DNA from: a virus
Lineage: Duplodnaviria; Heunggongvirae; Uroviricota; Caudoviricetes
DNA: 39,748 nt
IMG/VR virus record: IMGVR_UViG_2563366998_000008
Strand: one strand, 5' to 3'
Within the stretch, counting starts at the first letter, position 1; the number at the start of each line of letters is the position of its first letter. The position numbers and the translations under genes were made by a program. Shown in pieces: positions 3,632 through 38,702 of this stretch. The notes below the pieces were generated by a model. That model worked only from the letters and a program-made list of their open reading frames with translations. It had not been told where the DNA came from and did not search any database.

Positions 3632-3833
3632 ATACAGCGAACGCCATTGGTTTAGTTGGATATTTACTGTGCCGGACAAAAACGGTTTGCGGGGAAATCT
3701 TAGTTAAGTAGAATAACTGCGGGTGCTTGAGGCTATCTGTCTCAGGCATGAACACCAAAAGGCAGATAGAGAAAAGCCCCAGTTAACATTACGCGTCCTG
3801 CAAGACGCTTAACATTAATCTGAGGCCATATCT

Positions 3834-3893
3834 ATGCGACACATAGAGATTAGCCTCTTACGGACCGAAAGGTCAAGGAGAAGCAGGCTATGA
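3834..3893 (+). CDS. mok-like leader uORF translationally coupled to hok
   Basis: 19-codon ORF whose TGA (3891-3893) overlaps the hok ATG (3890-3892) as ATGA. Confidence 0.3.
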   Translation: MRHIEISLLRTERSRRSRL

Positions 3894-7017: not shown

Positions 7018-7386
7018 ATGACCGAACGCATAGAATTTGTTTTGCCTTACTCGCCGACGGTGAACACTTACTGGCGACGCCGTGGCAGCACATATTTTGT
7101 ATCAAAAGCCGGGGAGCGTTATCGCCGGGCAGTGGCGCTTATTGTTCGCCAGCAGCGACTGAAATTAAGCCTGTCCGGACGGCTGGCAATAAAAATTATT
7201 GCAGAGCCACCGGATAAGCGTCGTCGTGACCTGGACAATATTCTGAAAGCACCACTGGATGCGCTGACGCACGCGGGGTTGTTAATGGACGATGAGCAGT
7301 TTGATGAAATCAATATTGTACGTGGCCAGCCAGTATCTGGTGGACGGCTGGAGATAAGAATTACAGAGGTGGGTGTGCATGAATAA
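7018..7386 (+). CDS. rusA: RusA-family Holliday junction resolvase
   Basis: 122-aa product with RRRDLDN and GGRLEI motifs resembling E. coli RusA; ATG abuts the upstream stop. Confidence 0.85.
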   Translation: MTERIEFVLPYSPTVNTYWRRRGSTYFVSKAGERYRRAVALIVRQQRLKLSLSGRLAIKIIAEPPDKRRRDLDNILKAPLDALTHAGLLMDDEQFDEINIVRGQPVSGGRLEIRITEVGVHE

Positions 7387-8068
7387 CCAGTATTTACAGT
7401 TTGTTCGTGAGCAACTCATGATTGCCACTGCAGATCTCAGTGGGTCGACAAAATGCCAGCTGGAAGCCTGGCAGGAAAATGCCCTGTTCGATACAGGGCG
7501 TTACAGACGCAAAAAAATTCGTTACCGCGATGAGGTAACCGGAAAAATGATCACGCGGGATAATCCCCCGATCCAGGGTAAACAATCACTGGCGAAAGGC
7601 TCATCAATTGCGCTGGTCAGTCCTGTTGAGTTTGCAACATCATCGTGGCGGCGTGCTGTTCTGGAACTGGAAGAACATCAGAAGGCGTGGTTGTTGTGGT
7701 GTTATGGCGGAAACATTTGCTGGGAGCATCAGATCGCGATAACGCAGTGGGGGTGGAGTGAATTTAAAACTCAGTCCGGCTCCAGAAAAATTGCAGTGAA
7801 AACGCTGGAGCGTGTGAAGAAGTTGATCTGGCTGGCGGCACAGGATGTCAGAGGATGGGTTACCGGGTGTGAGGTCTACCAGAGACAGGAGCTTGCCAGA
7901 CTGTGTGGAGTTAAGCCTGATAACTGGAGCCATAATTATGCGAACTACTGGCGTGAGATGTGCGATATTTTTAAGCGCCTCGATAGAGAATCCTTGATTT
8001 GCTCCGTGAAAATAAGAGCGCAACAAAAAGCGACCTTTTCACGACGAGATATTGCAAAAGTCAATTAA
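7379..8068 (+). CDS. Q: late-gene antiterminator Q-like protein
   Basis: Position directly after rusA and before a promoter/terminator pair and the lysis genes; ATG 7379 with GAGGTGGG RBS; family assignment by context. Confidence 0.6.
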   Translation: MNNQYLQFVREQLMIATADLSGSTKCQLEAWQENALFDTGRYRRKKIRYRDEVTGKMITRDNPPIQGKQSLAKGSSIALVSPVEFATSSWRRAVLELEEHQKAWLLWCYGGNICWEHQIAITQWGWSEFKTQSGSRKIAVKTLERVKKLIWLAAQDVRGWVTGCEVYQRQELARLCGVKPDNWSHNYANYWREMCDIFKRLDRESLICSVKIRAQQKATFSRRDIAKVN

Positions 8069-8096
8069 ATCGCGTATGTTTCGTATAAATCTGATA
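8061..8096 (+). promoter_or_regulatory. candidate late promoter (PR'-like)
   Basis: TCAATT - 17 bp - TATAAA just downstream of Q and ~40 bp upstream of the terminator. Confidence 0.3.
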
Positions 8097-8133
8097 TTTT
8101 GCCGATTTTGTACGTGATGGCAAAGTAAGAAAA

Positions 8134-8158
8134 AACCACCGCCAGGTGGTTTTTTTTA
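8134..8158 (+). terminator. rho-independent terminator (tR'-like)
   Basis: AACCACC-GCCA-GGTGGTT hairpin followed by TTTTTTT. Confidence 0.6.
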
Positions 8159-8280
8159 TGTCCGAAAATCGCGTCAGTACAGTAAACGCGCTGGTGGTTG
8201 CGAATACGGGTCTTTCAGCTTGCCGGCTTTTTCGACAAGAGTTATTGGTATGTCACGTTAACCGGAAAAGGGAAAAAGAC

Positions 8281-8478
8281 ATGCTAAAACAGCAGGATAT
8301 GACAGAAGCCGCCAGAGTGGTGTTTAATGAATTAAGCGTTACCGACCCGGCGACAGTCAGGGAGATTGCACAGAATACTTACCTTTCACGCGAACGCTGC
8401 CAGTTAATACTGACCCAGCTTGTTATGGCGGGTCTGGCAGACTATCAGTTTGGTTGTTACAGACACCTTCAGTCCTGA
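8281..8478 (+). CDS. small hypothetical protein (65 aa)
   Basis: ATG 8281; alternative upstream ATG at 8158 lies inside the terminator T-run; weak hairpin plus T-run at its stop. Confidence 0.35.
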   Translation: MLKQQDMTEAARVVFNELSVTDPATVREIAQNTYLSRERCQLILTQLVMAGLADYQFGCYRHLQS

Positions 8479-8791
8479 AGGCTTTTTTATTTGTGGTAAA
8501 TGGGCGGCTGGTGGGTGTGGTGGTTGTTGCTTTCCCGTTGCTGAAAAAGAAAACGCCAGACTGTTAGCCGGGTATCAGTTAGCGGGAGAAATTTTTAAAT
8601 ACTTCACAATTCAGGCGGTTGACTGTTGTCTGGTTTGCGGGGAGTTTGTTAAAAGAAACTGGCATGGTGAATCCCCCTGTGCGGAGGGGCAATCAGCGAG
8701 TAGGTATATGGGATAATCGCGGATTCAGGTGCTGGTACTGAATTCACCGGGAGGCACCCGGCACCATGCAATGGCACATAGCGCCACTCTC

Positions 8792-8827
8792 CAGCCCCTC
8801 TCCGGAGGGGCTGTTTATATTGATTTT
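8792..8827 (+). terminator. hairpin with T-rich tail between convergent genes
   Basis: CAGCCCCTC-TCCG-GAGGGGCTG followed by TTTATATTGATTTT. Confidence 0.4.
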
Positions 8828-8847
8828 GTCAGATGTGAGTAAACTCC

Positions 8848-9183
8848 TTATGGACTTTGTTGTTTTAGCCCATAAGGACATATTTGCAGAGTGCAACGGT
8901 TATTAAAGCATTCATTCAATACGTTATCTGTATTTGTAGGGCATTCCTGGCTGTTTTTGATTAAATTCCAGAATGTTTTATTGAATGGTACTACGTTGTA
9001 AATGGTTACAGGTAGCACTTTGTTATTGAGCATGATACCTGTGTGAGTCAGTGTAAATATACTTTCAGGAGGTAAGAAAGCATCCGATTGATACCAGATT
9101 ATTAATTTTATTTTACTCCATATGACTGAAAAAGATATTCCGCATGATGGCTGGATAACTGTATCAATCACAATCCACTTCAT
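8848..9183 (-). CDS. hypothetical protein (111 aa) in an AT-rich island, opposite strand to the late operon
   Basis: Minus-strand ORF with AAGGA about 6 nt upstream of ATG; AT-rich flanks; no recognised domain. Confidence 0.45.
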
Positions 9184-9443
9184 TTAGTTTCCTTGTTTAT
9201 GCCTTGCTGGTGATGTTCTGAAAAGTATAAATGATATTTTTGATTGTAAACCATAGAGCAGAATTATTTTTCTGATGTTGTTTATTGTTTATTTAAATGC
9301 AGGGTGGTTTATATCTCGTCTTGTAGTTTATCCATGCATATCTGCTTGATGATGAGGTTTTTATTTAAGGTATGGTTTTGTGTTTTTTCTGTATTACATG
9401 TCAGGTATTTTAAAGAATCATTTTTCAGATGGTGGAAAGAACC

Positions 9444-9632
9444 ATGGCATTTAAACACTATGATGTTGTCAGGGCGGCGTCGCCGTCAGATCTTGCGGAA
9501 AAGCTGACACATAAACTGAAAGAGGGCTGGCAGCCGTTTGGTAGTCCGGTGGCCATAACCCCTTATACCCTGATGCAGGCGATTGCAGCAGAAGGTGATG
9601 TGGTGGTCAGTGGTGCAACTGAGCCGGAGTGA
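9444..9632 (+). CDS. DUF1737-like small phage protein
   Basis: MAFKHYDVVRAASPSDLAEKLTHKLKEGWQPFGSP... resembles small DUF1737 prophage proteins; alternative start at 9429. Confidence 0.55.
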   Translation: MAFKHYDVVRAASPSDLAEKLTHKLKEGWQPFGSPVAITPYTLMQAIAAEGDVVVSGATEPE

Positions 9633-9874
9633 TACTACGTCATCGTACTGGCCCGGCATTCCAGGCCATAAAAGACGGTCTGGCAGTGGGACTAAATGCA
9701 CTGACGCTGACGGATATTACCAAAAATGCAACGTATGGCGTTGAGATAGAAAGTCTGGTGCTGGAGATAAATGCACCGGCATCATCATAAAAAGTGAGCC
9801 AGTCAAATGGAAGGTATCGTTAAACTCACCGGTAGTGTCAGTGGGTCGTCTGAGACGCCTGCATGAGTTATCAG

Positions 9875-9905
9875 AGCCATCAGTACTTAACTGGTGGCTT
9901 TTTTA
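9875..9905 (+). terminator. rho-independent terminator-like hairpin upstream of the holin gene
   Basis: 9-bp stem (AGCCATCAG / CTGGTGGCT, one G-U) followed by a T-run. Confidence 0.4.
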
Positions 9906-9939
9906 TTGTTGTCAGCTTCCGGATAACGGGAGACGGGGT

Positions 9940-10155
9940 ATGTACCAGATGGAAAAAATCACAACAGGTGTGTCATACACCACGTCAGCGGTGGGAACGG
10001 GCTACTGGTTCCTGCAGTTGCTGGACAGGGTTTCCCCGTCTCAGTGGGCGGCAATAGGCGTGCTGGGGAGTCTGCTGTTTGGGCTGCTGACATATCTGAC
10101 TAACCTGTATTTCAAAATCAAAGAGGACCGGCGTAAGGCGGCGCGGGGAGAGTAA
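9940..10155 (+). CDS. S: class II holin, phage-21 S-type pinholin
   Basis: Dual-start MYQM...; translation closely resembles S21 as recalled (...[22 protein letters not shown]...[21 protein letters not shown]). Confidence 0.85.
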
Positions 10156-10156
10156 A

Positions 10157-11050
10157 GTGATGAATAAAAAATATGAACTGGTTGTTAAGGGGATAAATAA
10201 TTACGGGGATAAGGTTACTGTTACTGTGAAGTCGGAAGGTGACGGGCAAGCGTCGCTGTTGTTGCCAGATGTGGCGATTAGTCTTGACCGTACTGAAGGT
10301 GCCACGCTGGAGTTTTACGAAGCTGAGGCGAAAAAGCAGGCGAAGCAGTTTTTCATGGATGTTGCTGCCGGGTTATGTGAATGGAACGAACCGTTGCCGG
10401 AAAAGCGCCCCGTAATTTTAGAGGCGCAGGATGTGTTGATAACCTACAAAGGAAAGCTACCGGGAAGAATTACTTGTTCTCTGAAGATGCCGCCGTCAAC
10501 ACTGCGGTCAGAAAAAGATGATGTTGAATCACGTATTGAAAAACTGGAGAGCTACGTCGTTGAGCTGAATAAGAAATGGTCGATATTGGTGCCTTCTGGC
10601 GATGAAAAGCAGTTTGCTGCGTTTGACGATTATTGTCGGAAAGTGATGAGCAGAAATCTCGCAGAGTGTTTCAGTATTCATAATGATAATTTCAGTGACC
10701 CGGAATGGGAGTGTAACCGGCCATCCTTTGTTGTATCCGGTGATGCTGGGAAAATAACCATCTCAGAAAATGGGAAAGTAACACCTCCATCGCACCAGCA
10801 CAGTGAGGAGCTCATTGAATTTGCCATTGATTACCTGAAGAACAATAAAAAGCAGGGGCTGATGAAGCGCGTTGGCCGTTGCATGGGATATCTTCAGGTA
10901 GCCGCTGAGATTGAAGCGCTGGCCAGTGGTGCTGATAAGGATGCAATTGTGCGGGAGGCTCTTCTTCGTGATTTTAATACTCCACCCTTTAAAAAAGGGC
11001 CGGCTTACTGGCTTCATCCGGGGCTGACTTATCTTAAAGTGCGTATTTAG
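10157..11050 (+). CDS. hypothetical 297-aa protein inserted between holin and endolysin
   Basis: GTG 10157 / ATG 10160 directly after the holin stop; long clean ORF; no domain recognised; visibly more AT-rich than the structural genes. Confidence 0.6.
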   Translation: MMNKKYELVVKGINNYGDKVTVTVKSEGDGQASLLLPDVAISLDRTEGATLEFYEAEAKKQAKQFFMDVAAGLCEWNEPLPEKRPVILEAQDVLITYKGKLPGRITCSLKMPPSTLRSEKDDVESRIEKLESYVVELNKKWSILVPSGDEKQFAAFDDYCRKVMSRNLAECFSIHNDNFSDPEWECNRPSFVVSGDAGKITISENGKVTPPSHQHSEELIEFAIDYLKNNKKQGLMKRVGRCMGYLQVAAEIEALASGADKDAIVREALLRDFNTPPFKKGPAYWLHPGLTYLKVRI

Positions 11051-11086
11051 TGGGCCAGGGACAGCGGCTGAATATTTAATATATCC

Positions 11087-11620
11087 ATGAACACCAAAAT
11101 CAAATACGGCCTGTCGGCTGCCGTTCTGGCGCTGATTGCCGCTGGTGCGCCTGCGCCTGACATTCTCGACCAGTTTCTGGATGAAAAGGAAGGCAACCAC
11201 ACCACGGCATACCGTGATGGTGCAGGTATCTGGACCATCTGCCGTGGTGCCATCATGGTGGATGGCAAACCTGTCGTTCCGGGCATGAAGTTGTCGAAGG
11301 AAAAATGCGACCAGGTTAACGCCATTGAGCGTGATAAAGCGCTGGCGTGGGTGGAGAAAAACATCAGAGTGCCGCTGACCGAACCCCAGAAAGCGGGGAT
11401 CGCGTCATTCTGTCCGTACAACATTGGTCCCGGTAAGTGTTTCCCGTCGACGTTTTACAGACGAATTAATGCTGGTGATCGAAAAGGTGCCTGCGAAGCG
11501 ATTCGCTGGTGGATTAAGGACGGTGGCAGAGACTGCCGTATTCGTTCAAACAACTGTTACGGTCAGGTATCCCGTCGTGACCAGGAGAGCGCGCTGGCGT
11601 GCTGGGGTATCGACAGATAA
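11087..11620 (+). CDS. R: SAR endolysin (phage-21 R-type lysozyme)
   Basis: N-terminal Gly/Ala-rich signal-anchor-release segment (LSAAVLALIAAGA) plus lysozyme core resembling R21. Confidence 0.85.
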   Translation: MNTKIKYGLSAAVLALIAAGAPAPDILDQFLDEKEGNHTTAYRDGAGIWTICRGAIMVDGKPVVPGMKLSKEKCDQVNAIERDKALAWVEKNIRVPLTEPQKAGIASFCPYNIGPGKCFPSTFYRRINAGDRKGACEAIRWWIKDGGRDCRIRSNNCYGQVSRRDQESALACWGIDR

Positions 11621-11776
11621 GCAGAATATTTTGCTGAAAAATGAGGAATGGCCACGCGGGCGGATAACACGAAATCCTGCGAACTGGCGAAACGTAAGTG
11701 AATAAAAGTAAAAACCCCGTTTGTTGGCACCAAGCGAGGTTTTGTGTTTCTGACCTTGAGTAAGGCAAGGGAGAAC

Positions 11777-11959
11777 ATGGCGAAGTGTAAACGAATTCTG
11801 TTGAGGTTGACTATGAAAAATGGCCTTGAACTGAAAGCGCCTGTAACTGATGACATCAGCAGAGCACTGGCTTTTGCCATTAAGTGGGTGGCGGTCGGTG
11901 TTGCTGTGTCCCCGATGCTGTATGGGCTGGCAAAACTGGTCATTGCGTTGAAATCGTGA
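11777..11959 (+). CDS. small hypothetical protein with C-terminal hydrophobic segment
   Basis: ATG 11777 after GGGAGA; 60 aa. Confidence 0.3.
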
Positions 11960-11973
11960 AGGGAGGATTAAGC

Positions 11974-12105
11974 ATGTCAGACAAACTCATAACGCTGGCG
12001 AAGATCCTCTGTGTAATTGTCGGCATTTCATTTTCACTAATGCTGGTTGCTCTTTTTCTTTCCATGGCCTGGATGATGTTGTCTTCGTCGGGGTTGCTGG
12101 GGTGA
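11974..12105 (+). CDS. small hydrophobic membrane protein (43 aa)
   Basis: ATG 11974 after GGGAGGA; single predicted transmembrane helix; stop overlaps the Rz start. Confidence 0.35.
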
Positions 12106-12575
12106 ACATAAACCGAATGCTTTCCGCGTTTATCGTTATTCTGCTGGTGGCCTGTGGTGCGCTGTGGATGGCAACAGACCATTACCGTGATAACGCGATT
12201 ACCTACAAAGCGCAGCGCGATAACAAAGCCAGTGAACTGAAGCTGGCGAACGCAACCATTACTGATATGCAGGTGCGCCAGCGCGATGTTGCTGCGCTCG
12301 ATGCAAAATACTCGAGGGAATTAGCCGATGCGAGAGCTGAAAATGAAACTCTTCGCGCTGACGTTGCCGCTGGTCGTAAGCGCCTGCGGATCAACGCCAC
12401 CTGTCCAGGCTCCGTGCGTGAAGCCCCCACCACCTCCGGCGTGGATAATGCAACCGGCCCCCAACTGGCAGACACCGTTACACGGGATTATTTCACCCTC
12501 AGAGAGCGGCTGATGACGATGCACAAGCAACTGGAAGGGGCACAGGACTATATCCGCACTCAGTGCCTGAAATAA
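12102..12575 (+). CDS. Rz: Rz i-spanin
   Basis: N-terminal TM then ...[14 protein letters not shown]...VAAGRKRL...[10 protein letters not shown]..., matching lambda Rz; start GTG 12102 or ATG 12117. Confidence 0.85.
12328..12513 (+). CDS. Rz1: Rz1 o-spanin lipoprotein, embedded in Rz in the +1 frame
   Basis: Signal peptide with lipobox ending in Cys, then proline-rich [14 protein letters not shown]..., matching lambda Rz1. Confidence 0.8.
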
Positions 12576-12885
12576 GTTTTGTTGATGCGCCGTATCGTCG
12601 CTATATTCCCTCATTAACAGAGACCGCAGCCCGACAGGGAGACTCCTCTGCGCGAGTGTGCGGGGATAATTAAAAACGATGCACACCGGGTTTTTACCGC
12701 GTTAATGATTCGCGGGTTTATCCCGGTGCGATGGTGGAAGAAACAGGAAGCTGTATTACAGAAAGTGCTACTACTGTATCCCGATGCGATGTATGTAATG
12801 TGAGTCAGATAATGGCACAGGATGTGGTGATGTGGCAGTCTGGAACACAGGATATATTGTCAGAATAAGACCCGTAGGAATAAAA

Positions 12886-13212
12886 ATGAAAAGACGCCTT
12901 TTACTACTTTTTCTGTTATCTGTCCTGGCAGTGGGATGCTCGCAGCAAAAAGCTGATGAGCCCCGGCAATTAGTGACGGTGTATCCACGATATCCGGAAT
13001 ATGCTGCAGCAAATTATATCAAGGGGCTGGTTGAGGTTAAGTTCGATATTGGTGCTGATGGGACTGTGACACGGATCGTTTTTCTCCGCTCAGAGCCTCA
13101 TAATTTGTTTCGTGATGAAGTGGTGAAGGCCATGGCGAAATGGCGATTTGAAAAGAATCGCCCCTGTCAGGGAGTGAAGAGACAATTTATCTTTACGCCG
13201 TCACGTCCTTGA
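12886..13212 (+). CDS. lipoprotein with TonB C-terminal-like domain
   Basis: Signal peptide MKRRLLLLFLLSVLAVGC (lipobox LAVGC); mature region YPRYPEYAAANYIKGLVEVKFDIGADGTVTRIVFLRSEPHNLFRDEVVKAMAKWRFE aligns by eye to the E. coli TonB C-terminal domain. Confidence 0.7.
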   Translation: MKRRLLLLFLLSVLAVGCSQQKADEPRQLVTVYPRYPEYAAANYIKGLVEVKFDIGADGTVTRIVFLRSEPHNLFRDEVVKAMAKWRFEKNRPCQGVKRQFIFTPSRP

Positions 13213-13304
13213 TGCTTCCAGGTAGAGAGGGGCTGGACGCAGGAGAAAAATGAAAGAGCCAGCGGTTATATTTTTGTCATGGCTGACGAGGAATGATGGA
13301 AGAA

Positions 13305-13327
13305 GGCGTTGTATGCCACACAACGCC
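13305..13327. terminator. hairpin between convergent genes
   Basis: GGCGTTGT / ACAACGCC stem, T-rich downstream on the + strand. Confidence 0.35.
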
Positions 13328-13575
13328 TCACTGTTCATTTCTTCTTTTTCTCTGGTGGAACCCGATGAATAAGAGTTGCACTGGTTTCCGATGAGATGGC
13401 GATATACTCGGGCAAAGTATGCTGGCAGTTTTCCAACTGGTCAAAAATACCTGCTCTCGTCTGTTGCAATGCCTGCAGCATGCGGCGGCAATGCGCCTTG
13501 CTTTTACTAACCATCTTTCCTTCCTCTATCAGTCGCTGCGTGAACTCATCATGTAATACCAGGTAAATGCGGATG

Positions 13576-20204: not shown

Positions 20205-20930
20205 GCCTGACTGATTGTGCACAGAAAACCCCCAGCTAGGCTGGGGGTTCCGGAAAGCTTTCAGCTTTGAGCCAGTTATTAAAACCCCTTTTGATTTGTT
20301 AAAACACCTTGCGGTCTGGCAACTGCAAGTGTCAAACAAGAAATCAAAAGGGGGTCCCAATGGGGAACGAAAAGAGCTTAGCGCACACCCGATGGAACTG
20401 TAAATATCACATAGTTTTTGCGCCAAAATACCGAAGACAGGTGTTCTACAGAGAGAAGCGTAGAGCAATAGGCAGTATTTTGAGAAAGCTGTGTGAGTGG
20501 AAAAGCGTACGGATTCTGGAAGCTGAATGCTGTGCAGATCATATCCATATGCTTGTGGAGATCCCGCCTAAAATGAGCGTATCCGGGTTTATGGGATATC
20601 TGAAAGGGAAAAGCAGTCTGATGCTTTACGAGCAGTTTGGTGATTTGAAATTCAAATACAGGAACAGGGAGTTCTGGTGCAGAGGGTACTACGTCGATAC
20701 AGTGGGTAAGAACACGGCGAAGATACAGGATTACATAAAGCACCAGCTTGAAGAGGATAAAATGGGAGAGCAGTTATCGATTCCCTATCCGGGCAGCCCG
20801 TTTACGGGCCGTAAGTAACGAAGTTGGATGCAAATGTCAGATCGTGTGCGCCTGTTAGGGCGCGGCTGGTAAGAGAGCCTTATAGGCGCATTTGAAAAAC
20901 CTCCGGCTATGCCGGAGGATATTTATTTTC
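20205..20930 (+). mobile_element. IS200-family insertion sequence (boundaries approximate, +/- 30 bp)
   Basis: Y1 transposase gene flanked by subterminal perfect hairpins (CCCCCAGC-TAGG-CTGGGGG near the left end; CTCCGGC-TAT-GCCGGAG near the right); enlarges the D-E gap to 769 bp. Confidence 0.75.
20360..20818 (+). CDS. tnpA: IS200/IS605-family Y1 (HUH) transposase TnpA
   Basis: MGNEKSLAHTRWNCKYHIVFAPKYRR...HIHMLVEIPPK...YLKGKSS characteristic of IS200 TnpA. Confidence 0.9.
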   Translation: MGNEKSLAHTRWNCKYHIVFAPKYRRQVFYREKRRAIGSILRKLCEWKSVRILEAECCADHIHMLVEIPPKMSVSGFMGYLKGKSSLMLYEQFGDLKFKYRNREFWCRGYYVDTVGKNTAKIQDYIKHQLEEDKMGEQLSIPYPGSPFTGRK

Positions 20931-38118: not shown

Positions 38119-38702
38119 TGGCATTCAGAATGAGTGAACAAGCACGGACCATAAAAATTTATAATCTGCTGGCCGGAACTAATGAATTTATTGGTGAAGG
38201 TGACGCATATATTCCGCCTCATACAGGTCTGCCAGCAAACAGTACCGATATTGCACCACCAGATATTCCTGCTGGCTTTGTGGCTGTTTTCAACAGTGAT
38301 GAGGCATCGTGGCATCTCGTTGAAGACCATCGGGGGAAAACGGTTTATGACGTAGCGTCAGGGGACGAGTTATTTATTTCTGAACTCGGTCCGTTACCGG
38401 AAAATGTTACCTGGTTATCGCCGGAAGGGGAGTTTCAGAAGTGGAACGGCACAGCCTGGGTGAAGGATACGGAAGCAGAAAAACTGTTCCGGATCCGGGA
38501 GGCGGAAGAAACAAAAAACAACCTGATGCAGGTAGCCAGTGAGCATATTGCGCCGCTTCAGGATGCTGCAGATCTGGAAATTGCAACGGAGGAAGAAACC
38601 TCATTGCTGGAAGCCTGGAAAAAGTATCGGGTGTTGCTGAACCGTGTTGATACATCAACTGCACCTGATATTGAGTGGCCTACGAACCCTGTCAGGGAGT
38701 AA
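38118..38702 (+). CDS. tfa: tail fiber assembly protein (Tfa)
   Basis: 194 aa; start overlaps stf stop (TAATG); typical Tfa C-terminus. Confidence 0.9.
38538..38702 (+). repeat. tfa 3' segment, direct repeat copy A
   Basis: ~165 bp, roughly 85-90% identical by eye to 39587..39748. Confidence 0.8.

What the first reader, a model, noticed from the sequence alone, without database searches (positions are those of the whole stretch)
10157..11050. Unrecognised 297-aa gene splitting the lysis cassette between holin and endolysin
Seen in sequence: a clean 297-codon ORF starts 2 nt after the pinholin stop and ends 36 nt before the SAR endolysin start, on the same strand, and is visibly more AT-rich than the flanking lysis and structural genes. 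I recognise no domain and it has no transmembrane segment. Inference: it is co-transcribed with lysis genes late in infection, so it could be a lysis regulator, an abortive-infection or exclusion factor, or another horizontally acquired cargo gene. This is one of the best candidates in the window for an undescribed function.
Basis: partly seen in the sequence, partly recalled or inferred. Interest (0 to 1): 0.6.

Follow-up and report, generated by a model that had tools for sequence, protein, structure and literature searches.

The report
YdfR-family gene inside a prophage lysis cassette
The ORF is real and intact, but it is a long form of the already catalogued YdfR/DUF1327 prophage family, which normally sits between this holin and endolysin in E. 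coli; it is an optional, heavily reshuffled accessory gene whose function is unknown, and the only experimental lead is that a K-12 relative binds RNase E.

Summary
An intact ORF lies between an S21-type pinholin and an R21-type SAR endolysin. It most likely starts at ATG 10160 (296 aa). It is 46% GC against 54% in its neighbours and has no membrane segment.

It is not unrecognised. Residues 2-101 are Pfam DUF1327 (E 1e-40), and PHROG 1085 covers the whole length. Identical DNA occurs in hundreds of E. coli chromosomes labelled "YdfR family protein". K-12 Qin has the same layout (essQ-ydfR-rrrQ).

Findings from this analysis:
- **Architecture:** the protein has a DUF1327 head, a linker, a predicted coiled coil and a conserved 114-aa C-terminal module that is in no Pfam family and has no fold match.
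- **Salmonella relatives:** they share this architecture but lie upstream of the holin.
- **Variability:** among 71 viral contigs with a near-identical holin, the junction is empty in 12. The rest carry at least eight module combinations.
- **Selection:** the C-module is under purifying selection (dN/dS 0.15-0.36).

The gene is therefore an accessory late-operon gene, not core lysis machinery. The best lead on mechanism is published: residues 1-72 of K-12 YdfR bind the catalytic half of RNase E. This is weak evidence, so confidence in that mechanism is low. Interest is modest.

The parts
10145..10152 (+). GGGGAGAG Shine-Dalgarno-like run inside the last holin codons. It serves the start codon that follows the holin stop.
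   Evidence: Sequence read. The same run and the same 4-nt spacing precede the endolysin ATG in cassettes whose junction is empty.
9940..10155 (+). S21-type class II pinholin, 71 codons, with the dual-start motif MYQM.
   Evidence: Pfam PF04971, E 7.5e-33. PGAP calls it 'class II holin family protein' at the equivalent position.
10160..11050 (+). YdfR-family gene, long form: 296 codons plus stop. An alternative in-frame GTG lies at 10157.
   Evidence: PHROG 1085 matches 296/296 positions at E 7.6e-190. The DNA is 100% identical in many E. coli chromosomes.
10160..10384 (+). N-terminal DUF1327 head (aa 1-75): three strands plus a long helix.
   Evidence: Pfam PF07041, E 1.3e-40. AF2 pLDDT is 70-88. 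It is 47% identical to K-12 YdfR over 78 aa. Residues 1-72 of K-12 YdfR bind the RNase E N-terminal half (PMC13232886).
10385..10513 (+). Linker (aa 76-118, PEKRPVILEAQ...STLRSEKDD). It is predicted disordered and is conserved among E. coli alleles.
   Evidence: Alignment A1. pLDDT is 20-30.
10514..10609 (+). Predicted coiled-coil helix (aa 119-150, VESRIEKLESYVVELNKK...).
   Evidence: AF2 predicts a helix at 116-143. The matching LExRVxxLEKRL motif is kept in the Salmonella relatives, and it forms the N-terminus of the stand-alone forms that lack the head.
10610..10705 (+). Variable segment (aa 151-182). It is the most AT-rich part of the gene and is replaced or extended in other alleles.
   Evidence: Alignment A1. 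GC is 41% over codons 113-182.
10706..11047 (+). Conserved C-terminal module (aa 183-296): three short strands plus four helices, basic (pI 8.9). Invariant residues are H214, G239, R240, L245, Q246, A248, A249, P276, K278, W284, P287, G288, Y291 and L292.
   Evidence: Alignments A3 and A7. The AF2 model has pLDDT 78.7 and pTM 0.70. dN/dS is 0.15-0.36. There is no Pfam hit and no significant fold match.
11051..11086 (+). 36-nt spacer before the endolysin ATG, with no Shine-Dalgarno-like run next to the ATG.
   Evidence: The same spacer type follows C-module-bearing genes in other loci.
11087..11620 (+). R21-type SAR endolysin of the MNTKIKYGLSAAVLALIAAG allele.
   Evidence: Pfam PF00959, E 2.4e-24. 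This allele group goes with occupied junctions. Cassettes with empty junctions carry an MSRK[LF]RYGL allele about 90% identical to it.

Best explanation
Identity (near certain): this is an intact long-form member of the YdfR/DUF1327 family of lambdoid prophages. It is transcribed with the lysis genes from the Q-dependent late operon. It is translated from the holin-coupled start site that the endolysin uses in cassettes lacking this gene.

Role (shown by comparison): it is an optional accessory gene, not part of the holin/endolysin/spanin machinery.

Mechanism (inferred, low confidence): it is a cytoplasmic, probably coiled-coil-dimerised, two-module adaptor.
- The DUF1327 head docks on the N-terminal catalytic half of host RNase E, as published for residues 1-72 of K-12 YdfR.
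- The conserved basic C-terminal module binds a second partner, either RNA or a protein.
- The protein would thereby alter RNase E-dependent RNA decay late in infection, for example the stability of the long late transcript or of host RNAs.

K-12 YdfR (103 aa) would then be a truncated head-only remnant. That would explain why overproducing it barely changed the transcriptome.
For: Identity:
- Pfam DUF1327, 137.9 bits against a cut-off of 25.
- PHROG 1085 over the full length.
- RefSeq label 'YdfR family protein' on identical DNA.
- K-12 Qin has essQ-ydfR-rrrQ in the same order.

Late expression:
- No terminator-like site lies between the holin, the ORF and the endolysin.
- A pR'-leader-like STnc100 RNA plus hairpin terminator sits at 8633-8822, just after Q.
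- The start codon lies 4 nt after the holin stop, behind GGGGAGAG.

Accessory status:
- In 12 of 71 loci with a holin at least 97% identical, the holin and endolysin are adjacent.
- Salmonella homologues lie upstream of the holin, where holin and lysozyme are adjacent, and occur with two different holin families.
- Viable Stx phages such as H-19B carry only a roughly 114-codon head form.

Real protein under selection: dN/dS is 0.15-0.36 for the C-module and 0.3-0.8 for the head.

Modules that work together:
- The head and the C-module are fused in many alleles. They are separate, adjacent genes in permuted order in others.
- The same head, coiled coil and C-module order is kept in Salmonella at 28-45% identity. 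hhalign gives 87% probability (E 4e-6) that the heads are homologous.

RNase E link (PMC13232886):
- YdfR residues 1-72 were recovered in a two-hybrid screen with RNase G as bait and gave a stronger signal with RNase E fusions; the full-length fusion was positive only with Rne 1-597.
- Rne 1-598 co-eluted with Strep-YdfR.
- DNase-resistant nucleic acid co-purified.

The C-module is basic (pI 8.9), whereas the head is acidic (pI 5.5).
Against: - The RNase E evidence concerns a homologue only 47% identical in the head.
- That evidence rests on two-hybrid assays and co-purification from overproducing cells. The authors note that the full-length fusion was positive only with Rne 1-597, that overproduction changed few transcripts, and that a contaminant could account for the RNA.
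- RNase E is highly conserved between E. coli and Salmonella (general knowledge). Yet the head evolves fast (dN/dS up to 0.8, and 21% identity over the aligned columns in the profile comparison with the Salmonella heads). This is unexpected for a domain that binds a conserved host enzyme.
- Forms with the C-module alone exist (185 aa), so the C-module does not need the head.
- Known phage modulators of RNase E act early or in the middle of infection, not from the late operon (general knowledge).
- Nothing here shows that either module binds RNA.
Confidence: 0.3

Rival explanations
1. It is a lysis-timing regulator. In this reading a soluble cytoplasmic factor is made together with the pinholin and modulates holin triggering or the amount or timing of SAR endolysin. 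It would play a role comparable to P1 LydB or T4 RIII, or act indirectly by uncoupling endolysin translation from the holin.
For: - The gene stays next to the lysis genes in both E. coli (downstream of the holin) and Salmonella (upstream of it).
- Its ATG occupies the holin-coupled start that belongs to the endolysin in empty cassettes. The endolysin is left with a 36-nt spacer lacking a Shine-Dalgarno run.
- The Keio ydfR deletion scored as an envelope-leakage hit in the CPRG screen (PMC3879167 supplement; cited in PMC13232886).
Against: - The gene is absent from 12 of 71 cassettes with an essentially identical holin.
- Many different module combinations occur with that same holin, so there is no sign of co-evolution.
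- Salmonella relatives occur with a different holin family.
- The protein has no membrane segment.
- No PHROG hit is in the lysis category.
- The CPRG phenotype could be a polar effect: the resistance cassette may drive the downstream rrrQ lysozyme (inference).
Confidence: 0.2
2. It is horizontally shuffled prophage cargo that acts against other phages or against host defences (exclusion, abortive infection or anti-defence). In this reading a variable sensor or targeting head is joined to a conserved effector module.
For: - The slot is hypervariable, with modules exchanged, permuted, fused and split.
- GC is lower than in neighbouring genes.
- The family has a narrow taxonomic range and is small: 74 representatives among 1.84 billion proteins, all named relatives being Escherichia, Shigella or Salmonella.
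- The head evolves fast while the C-module is conserved.
Against: - PADLOC gave no significant hit (best E 0.018 at 11 bits, on the coiled-coil region).
- No promoter-like or terminator-like sites flank the gene as they do for typical lysogen-expressed morons, and there is no room for a promoter after the holin stop.
- The late-operon position means expression only at the end of the lytic cycle.
- No enzymatic or toxin motif was recognisable.
Confidence: 0.15
3. It has no current function. In this reading it is a decaying or selfishly recombining filler sequence kept only by linkage to the lysis genes.
For: - Many junctions hold truncated or broken forms, for example 134+162, 62+68 and 110+140 aa fragments, or a 114-aa ORF followed by about 350 nt of non-coding sequence.
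- Very close alleles differ mostly by non-synonymous changes, for example 4 non-synonymous against 0 synonymous.
- PGAP flags this allele as a partial pseudogene.
Against: - The 296-codon frame is intact and identical in hundreds of genomes.
- The C-module has dN/dS of 0.15-0.36 over dS 0.19-2.2.
- The three-part architecture persists down to 28% identity in Salmonella.
- The C-module folds confidently in AF2.
Confidence: 0.1

Closest known systems
E. coli K-12 YdfR (b1555, Qin prophage; Pfam DUF1327 / PF07041)
   Same: The N-terminal fold family is the same (47% identity over 78 aa). The position between an S21-type holin (essQ) and an R21-type lysozyme (rrrQ) is the same. The RefSeq family name is the same.
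   Different: K-12 YdfR has 103 aa: the head plus an unrelated 30-aa tail. It lacks the linker, the coiled coil and the conserved C-terminal module. Its stop codon overlaps the rrrQ start, whereas here a 36-nt spacer follows the gene.
PHROG 1085 and the long-form 'YdfR family proteins' of E. coli prophages and Stx phages (e.g. Stx2_95 BCI50300, phage 86 orf5)
   Same: The profile matches over the full length (296/296). The junction is the same.
   Different: The alleles differ by module swaps: a 329-aa form with an insertion after the coiled coil, a 268-aa form lacking the coiled coil, and two head types. None has an assigned function.
Salmonella enterica prophage hypothetical proteins of 250-340 aa (e.g. 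P0203, P0197)
   Same: The order head, coiled coil, C-module is the same. The C-module is 34-46% identical and keeps the invariant GRxMGxLQxAAEIE and PPxK...W..PG..YL motifs. They also lie in the late operon next to the lysis genes.
   Different: They are placed upstream of the holin rather than between holin and endolysin. Pfam detects the head weakly or not at all.
Phage-encoded RNase E modulators (T4 Srd, T7 gp0.7, phiKZ Dip) and the host adaptor RapZ
   Same: This is only a functional analogy. It rests on the published binding of the YdfR head to the RNase E N-terminal half (PMC13232886).
   Different: No sequence or fold relationship was detected. Those phage proteins are early or middle genes (general knowledge), whereas this gene is in the late operon. 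No effect on RNA decay has been shown.
Soluble lysis regulators encoded beside holins (P1 LydB, T4 RIII)
   Same: A small-to-medium cytoplasmic protein is encoded next to a holin and made with it.
   Different: There is no homology: all PHROG hits are 'unknown function'. The gene is dispensable with the same holin. It is not tied to one holin family.

Membership tests
YdfR / DUF1327 (PF07041) | The sequence matches the Pfam model above its gathering score. | tested here: met
   137.9 bits against a cut-off of 25, E 1.3e-40, residues 2-101 on profile positions 1-88 of 93.
YdfR / DUF1327 (PF07041) | The gene sits in a lambdoid prophage between a class II (S21-type) holin and an R21-type lysozyme. 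| tested here: met
   Flanks are PF04971 and PF00959. K-12 essQ-ydfR-rrrQ has the same layout, as do all E. coli-type loci from IMG/VR.
PHROG 1085 (long-form YdfR-like, unknown function) | The profile matches over the full length. | tested here: met
   E 7.6e-190, residues 2-297 on profile positions 1-296 of 296.
Phage RNase E modulators / RNase E adaptors | The protein physically binds RNase E. | not testable with these tools
   Binding is published only for K-12 YdfR residues 1-72 (two-hybrid and co-purification; PMC13232886). The head here is 47% identical.
Phage RNase E modulators / RNase E adaptors | The protein is homologous to a known modulator (Srd, Dip, gp0.7, RraA/B, RapZ). | tested here: not met
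   No such family appeared in the Pfam, PHROG, NCBIfam or PDB sequence searches, or in Foldseek against the PDB.
Phage RNase E modulators / RNase E adaptors | The protein changes RNase E-dependent RNA decay. | not testable with these tools
   Overproducing the truncated K-12 YdfR changed only a few transcripts (PMC13232886).
Antiholins / lysis regulators (S21-71, S107, LydB, RI/RIII) | The protein is homologous to a known lysis regulator or has a membrane topology like a holin's. | tested here: not met
   All ten PHROG hits are 'unknown function'. There is no hydrophobic segment (maximum KD19 of 0.75).
Antiholins / lysis regulators (S21-71, S107, LydB, RI/RIII) | The protein always accompanies, and co-varies with, its cognate holin. 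| tested here: not met
   With a holin at least 97% identical, the junction is empty in 12 of 71 loci and otherwise holds many different forms. Salmonella relatives occur with another holin family.
Antiholins / lysis regulators (S21-71, S107, LydB, RI/RIII) | The protein alters lysis timing. | not testable with these tools
   The only hint is the CPRG leakage hit for the Keio ydfR deletion, which is confounded by possible polarity on rrrQ.
Known anti-phage defence systems (PADLOC-DB) | The sequence matches a defence-protein model. | tested here: not met
   The best hit is PbeC at E 0.018 and 11.3 bits, on the coiled-coil region only.
Lysogen-expressed moron (bor/lom type) | The gene has its own promoter and terminator. 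| tested here: inconclusive
   The consensus scan found no + strand promoter-like site in 8000-13500 and no convincing terminator after the gene. Only 1-4 nt separate it from the holin stop. Such scans cannot exclude a weak internal promoter.

The most novel reading that the evidence does not exclude
Long-form YdfR proteins could be a previously unrecognised class of late-expressed phage adaptors. [quoted passage not shown] A coiled coil would dimerise the protein. The conserved, basic, fold-orphan C-terminal module would deliver or shield specific RNAs. This would couple RNA decay to the timing of lysis or late gene expression in lambdoid and Stx prophages. K-12 YdfR would be a head-only relic of such a protein.
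Probability: 0.15. Interest if true: 0.65.

Novelty: already known. Interest (0 to 1): 0.3.

Why it matters
About half of complete E. coli genomes carry at least part of this gene, sometimes up to eight copies. It sits in the lysis cassette of many Stx-converting phages, where late transcription and lysis control toxin release. Its function is nevertheless unknown.

Three points from this analysis are useful:
- The family's full form is head, coiled coil and a conserved, unannotated C-terminal module. K-12 YdfR, the only member studied experimentally, is a truncated form.
- RefSeq mislabels the intact long allele as a 112-codon partial pseudogene, which hides the conserved module.
- The junction is optional and constantly reshuffled, so the gene is accessory to lysis.

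If the RNase E link holds for the long form, it would give a concrete experiment connecting phage late gene expression or lysis to host RNA decay.

Tried and rejected
- **NCBIfam:** only noise (E about 0.2).
- **PADLOC:** only an 11-bit hit on the coiled coil.
- **PDB sequence search with the protein:** LSm3 at E above 1.
- **PDB profile searches with A4 and A7:** a PhoU homologue (1sum_B) reached E 0.014, but only as a sum of three stretches that are each non-significant. A 'pathogenicity island protein' (8tch_A) gave E 0.1-0.6 over 25-33 residues. I treated both as chance. A literature look-up of 8TCH found nothing relevant.
- **Full-length AF2 model:** poor (mean pLDDT 53). Foldseek against the PDB gave nothing below E 0.48.
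- **afdb50 library:** not available.
- **Pfam scan of 45 family members:** nothing beyond DUF1327.
- **Rfam:** no RNA family inside the ORF.
- **Literature:** 'DUF1327' occurs in one genomics paper only. 'ydfR' occurs in a handful of papers, and only PMC13232886 bears on function. A survey of Stx phage lysis cassettes (PMC8136144) does not mention the intervening gene.
- **Genome-contig scan:** only three loci, all Escherichia or Shigella, because it holds one genome per species.
- **Repeated insertion and loss at the junction:** I could not show this cleanly. Cassettes with empty junctions carry a distinct endolysin allele (about 90% identical), so empty and occupied cassettes may be two lineages that share a holin.
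Full report
**1. The observation**

The ORF is present as described. The ORF listing reports 10157..11050 on the + strand, 297 aa, starting at GTG. The GTG is followed directly by an in-frame ATG at 10160. Every homologue starts MNKK, MKKK or MTQ, and PGAP places the start at the position equivalent to 10160 in identical genomes. The product is therefore most likely 296 aa.

The holin stop is TAA at 10153-10155. A GGGGAGAG run at 10145-10152 lies eight nucleotides upstream of the ATG. The gene stops at 11048-11050, and 36 nt separate it from the endolysin ATG at 11087.

- a P21-type class II holin with the MYQM dual start (PF04971, E 7.5e-33);
- a phage lysozyme with a SAR-like N-terminus (PF00959, E 2.4e-24);
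- further downstream, Rz (PF03245) with an embedded Rz1 frame.

The ORF is 46.2% GC. The holin is 54.3%, the endolysin 54.5% and the window 52.2%. The protein has no hydrophobic segment; it is 33 kDa with pI 5.95.

**2. It is a known family in its usual place**

- Residues 2-101 match Pfam DUF1327 (PF07041) at 137.9 bits, E 1.3e-40.
- PHROG 1085 ('unknown function') matches over all 296 positions at E 7.6e-190. Shorter PHROGs match individual pieces.
- The 3.2-kb stretch 9400-12600 is 100% identical in many E. coli chromosomes. 480 of 5,426 complete genomes hold at least 80% of it.
- The ORF itself has at least a partial match in 2,703 genomes and at least 80% coverage in 496. There are up to eight places per genome, all labelled 'YdfR family protein' or 'DUF1327 domain-containing protein'.
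- In E. coli K-12 the Qin prophage has essQ (holin), ydfR (103 aa), rrrQ (lysozyme) and rzpQ in the same order.
- Phage H-19B has an unannotated 399-nt gap between S and R that carries a head-only form.
- Stx2_95 carries a 329-aa form and phage 86 a 268-aa form.

One annotation quirk is worth recording. In genomes identical to the window, PGAP annotates only codons 1-112 as a 'partial' YdfR pseudogene. It leaves the remaining 555 nt (10496-11050) unannotated, although the frame is open throughout.

**3. Anatomy of the protein**

Alignments of E. coli variants (A1) and of distant relatives (A3) resolve five segments:
- **aa 1-75:** the DUF1327 head, predicted as three strands plus a long helix, pLDDT 70-88.
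- **aa 76-118:** a conserved but disordered linker.
- **aa 119-150:** a heptad-like helix (VESRIEKLESYVVELNKK), predicted to form a coiled coil.
- **aa 151-182:** a variable, AT-rich segment.
- **aa 183-296:** a conserved module with invariant H214, G239, R240, L245, Q246, A248, A249, P276, K278, W284, P287, G288, Y291 and L292.

Modelled alone with a 45-sequence alignment, the C-module gives pLDDT 78.7 and pTM 0.70. It folds as three short strands followed by four helices. It is basic (pI 8.9), whereas the head is acidic (pI 5.5).

The C-module is in no Pfam family. It has no significant relative by fold or sequence:
- Foldseek against BFVD gave nothing below E 0.29.
- Foldseek of the full model against the PDB gave nothing below E 0.48.
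- PDB sequence profiles gave only sub-threshold hits, to a PhoU homologue and to 8tch.

**4. Distribution and relatives**

An exhaustive HMMER scan of 1.84 billion representative proteins found only 74 relatives. A profile search of the 5.8-billion-protein set showed that the distant full-length relatives (28-45% identity, 250-340 aa) are all Salmonella enterica 'hypothetical proteins'. Their heads are barely seen by Pfam. They do align to the E. coli heads by profile-profile comparison (hhalign probability 87%, E 4e-6).

The three-part architecture therefore predates the E. coli/Salmonella split of these prophage modules. K-12 YdfR is a head-only form with an unrelated tail.

**5. Context comparison**

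In Salmonella the homologue is not between the holin and the endolysin. The order is Q, hicAB (opposite strand), small ORFs, the homologue, then holin, lysozyme and Rz. The holin and lysozyme are adjacent, and the holin is PF04971 in some loci and PF16080 in others.

In E. coli-type viral contigs retrieved with the family profile, every copy lies between the holin and the lysozyme, but the module content differs:
- head-linker-coil-variable-C (as in this window);
- head-linker-C (268 aa);
- coil-variable-C without a head (185 aa);
- a permuted pair, a 213-aa coil+C gene followed by a separate 75-aa DUF1327 gene.

A survey anchored on the holin is less biased. I retrieved 80 IMG/VR loci whose holin is at least 97% identical to the window's. 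Of these, 71 contain both holin and endolysin:

| Junction content | Loci |
|---|---|
| Empty (1-4 nt between holin stop and endolysin ATG) | 12 |
| Head-only forms (ORFs of 86-176 aa) | 34 |
| Head and C-module together (296, 268 or 328 aa) | 14 |
| C-module without a head | 9 |
| Permuted pair | 1 |
| Only the coil and variable segment | 1 |

A few junction ORFs across these classes are visibly broken into fragments.

In the empty cassettes the endolysin ATG sits four nucleotides after the holin stop, behind the same GGGGAGAG run. In the window the ydfR-like ATG has that slot, and the endolysin starts after a 36-nt spacer with no adjacent Shine-Dalgarno run.

Empty cassettes carry a distinct endolysin allele (MSRK[LF]RYGL, about 90% identical). 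All occupied cassettes have MN[TA]KI[KR]YGL alleles (95-97% identical). Empty and occupied cassettes may therefore be two lineages sharing a holin, rather than the result of frequent gain and loss. The variation within the occupied lineage is nevertheless extensive.

**6. Is it a functional gene?**

Against diverged alleles the C-module has dN/dS of 0.15-0.36 over dS 0.19-2.2. The head has 0.3-0.8. Very close alleles differ mainly by non-synonymous changes, but the counts are tiny.

Three things argue for a functional protein: the intact frame in hundreds of genomes, the architecture conserved across genera, and the confident fold of the C-module. The abundance of truncated forms shows the long form is often lost without killing the phage, as in H-19B.

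**7. Expression**

Q lies at 7379-8068. An Rfam STnc100 match at 8633-8822 ends in a strong hairpin with a T-run at 8792-8813. This looks like the pR' leader and tR' of a lambdoid late operon.

No terminator-like site separates the holin, the ORF and the endolysin, and no + strand promoter-like site was found in 8000-13500. Late, Q-dependent co-transcription with the lysis genes is therefore the expected mode. This is an inference; no expression data were examined for this allele.

**8. What it may do**

The only functional data are on K-12 YdfR.
- Gopel et al. 2026 (PMC13232886) recovered YdfR residues 1-72 in a bacterial two-hybrid screen that used RNase G as bait, and that clone gave higher activities with RNase E fusions. 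They found signals for full-length YdfR with Rne 1-597. Rne 1-598 co-eluted with Strep-YdfR, and DNase-resistant nucleic acid co-purified.
- They also found that overproduction changed few transcripts and did not affect growth.
- The Keio ydfR deletion was a hit in the CPRG envelope-leakage screen (PMC3879167 supplement). This could equally be a polar effect on the downstream lysozyme gene (my inference).

Combining this with the anatomy, my working model is a coiled-coil-dimerised adaptor. Its head docks on the RNase E catalytic half and its basic C-module binds a second partner, altering RNA decay late in infection. I give this about 0.3.

Arguments against it:
- The head is only 47% identical to K-12 YdfR.
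- The head evolves fast, although RNase E is conserved.
- The C-module can exist alone.
- The published evidence is modest.

Rivals:
- a lysis-timing regulator (about 0.2);
- shuffled anti-phage or anti-defence cargo (about 0.15; PADLOC negative);
- a functionless remnant (about 0.1).

The remaining probability is for something not yet imagined.

**9. Verdict**

However, it is a catalogued family (YdfR/DUF1327, PHROG 1085) in its canonical location and is present in a large share of E. coli genomes, so it is not a new kind of element.

This analysis adds:
- a definition of the long-form architecture, with an unannotated conserved C-terminal module;
- the Salmonella relatives, which are placed upstream of the holin;
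- a quantified picture of the junction as optional and reshuffled;
- the RefSeq mis-annotation.

Interest is modest (0.3). It would rise if the RNase E link were confirmed for the long form.

Noticed in passing
window 8633-8822 (+): An Rfam STnc100 match (132 bits) ends in a strong GC hairpin with a T-run at 8792-8813. It lies about 560 nt downstream of the Q antiterminator gene (7379-8068). It looks like the pR' leader and tR' terminator of the late operon.
   Followed up: partly
window 8848-9183 (-), within the 30-37% GC island at about 8800-9400: An iraM (anti-adapter protein) gene lies on the opposite strand, inside a strongly AT-rich island between the putative tR' and the lysis genes. 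It looks like a moron-type insertion.
   Followed up: no
window 9444-9629 (+) and 9629-9790 (+): The DUF1737 ORF is a truncated remnant, which PGAP flags as partial. In Stx-type prophages a roughly 650-aa DUF1737-SASA (NanS-p-like esterase) gene occupies this position (L010-L012). A 53-aa ORF follows it here.
   Followed up: partly
window 9873-9901 (+): A terminator-like hairpin (12 pairs) followed by TTTATTG lies about 40 nt upstream of the holin start at 9940, inside the late operon.
   Followed up: no
window 11621-12101 (+): The endolysin-Rz junction is also split, by 481 nt holding two small ORFs: 11777-11959 (contained in ORF 11744-11959, which matches phrog_1115, unknown function) and 11974-12105 (hydrophobic). 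In other loci this junction holds an Ant or a DNA methyltransferase gene (L010, L011).
   Followed up: partly
window 12886-13212 (+): A TonB-family (C-terminal domain) ORF with a lipoprotein-like signal sequence lies just after Rz/Rz1, at a typical moron position.
   Followed up: no
window 10496-11050; L001 11097-11651; L178 1397-1951: In genomes identical to the window, RefSeq/PGAP annotates the intact 296-codon ORF only as a 112-codon 'partial' YdfR pseudogene. The conserved C-terminal module is left unannotated.
   Followed up: yes
window 10145-10162 compared with L103, L105 and L109 (holin end): In cassettes with an empty junction the endolysin ATG lies 4 nt after the holin stop, behind the same GGGGAGAG run. 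Here the ydfR-like gene has taken that translationally coupled slot. Cassettes with empty junctions also carry a distinct endolysin allele (MSRK[LF]RYGL).
   Followed up: yes
window 10763-11200 (-): A 145-aa antisense ORF overlaps the 3' end of the gene and the endolysin start. Antisense ORF calls of 86-98 aa also overlap or follow the 3' end of the homologues in Salmonella loci and in phage 86 (orf6). It is probably spurious; I did not test it.
   Followed up: no
window 3721-3892 (+), 20227-20350 (+), 38461-38659 (+): Other Rfam hits are the sok antitoxin RNA (next to hokD), STnc490 within the head-gene region, and the IS009 RNA near the tail-fibre end.
   Followed up: no
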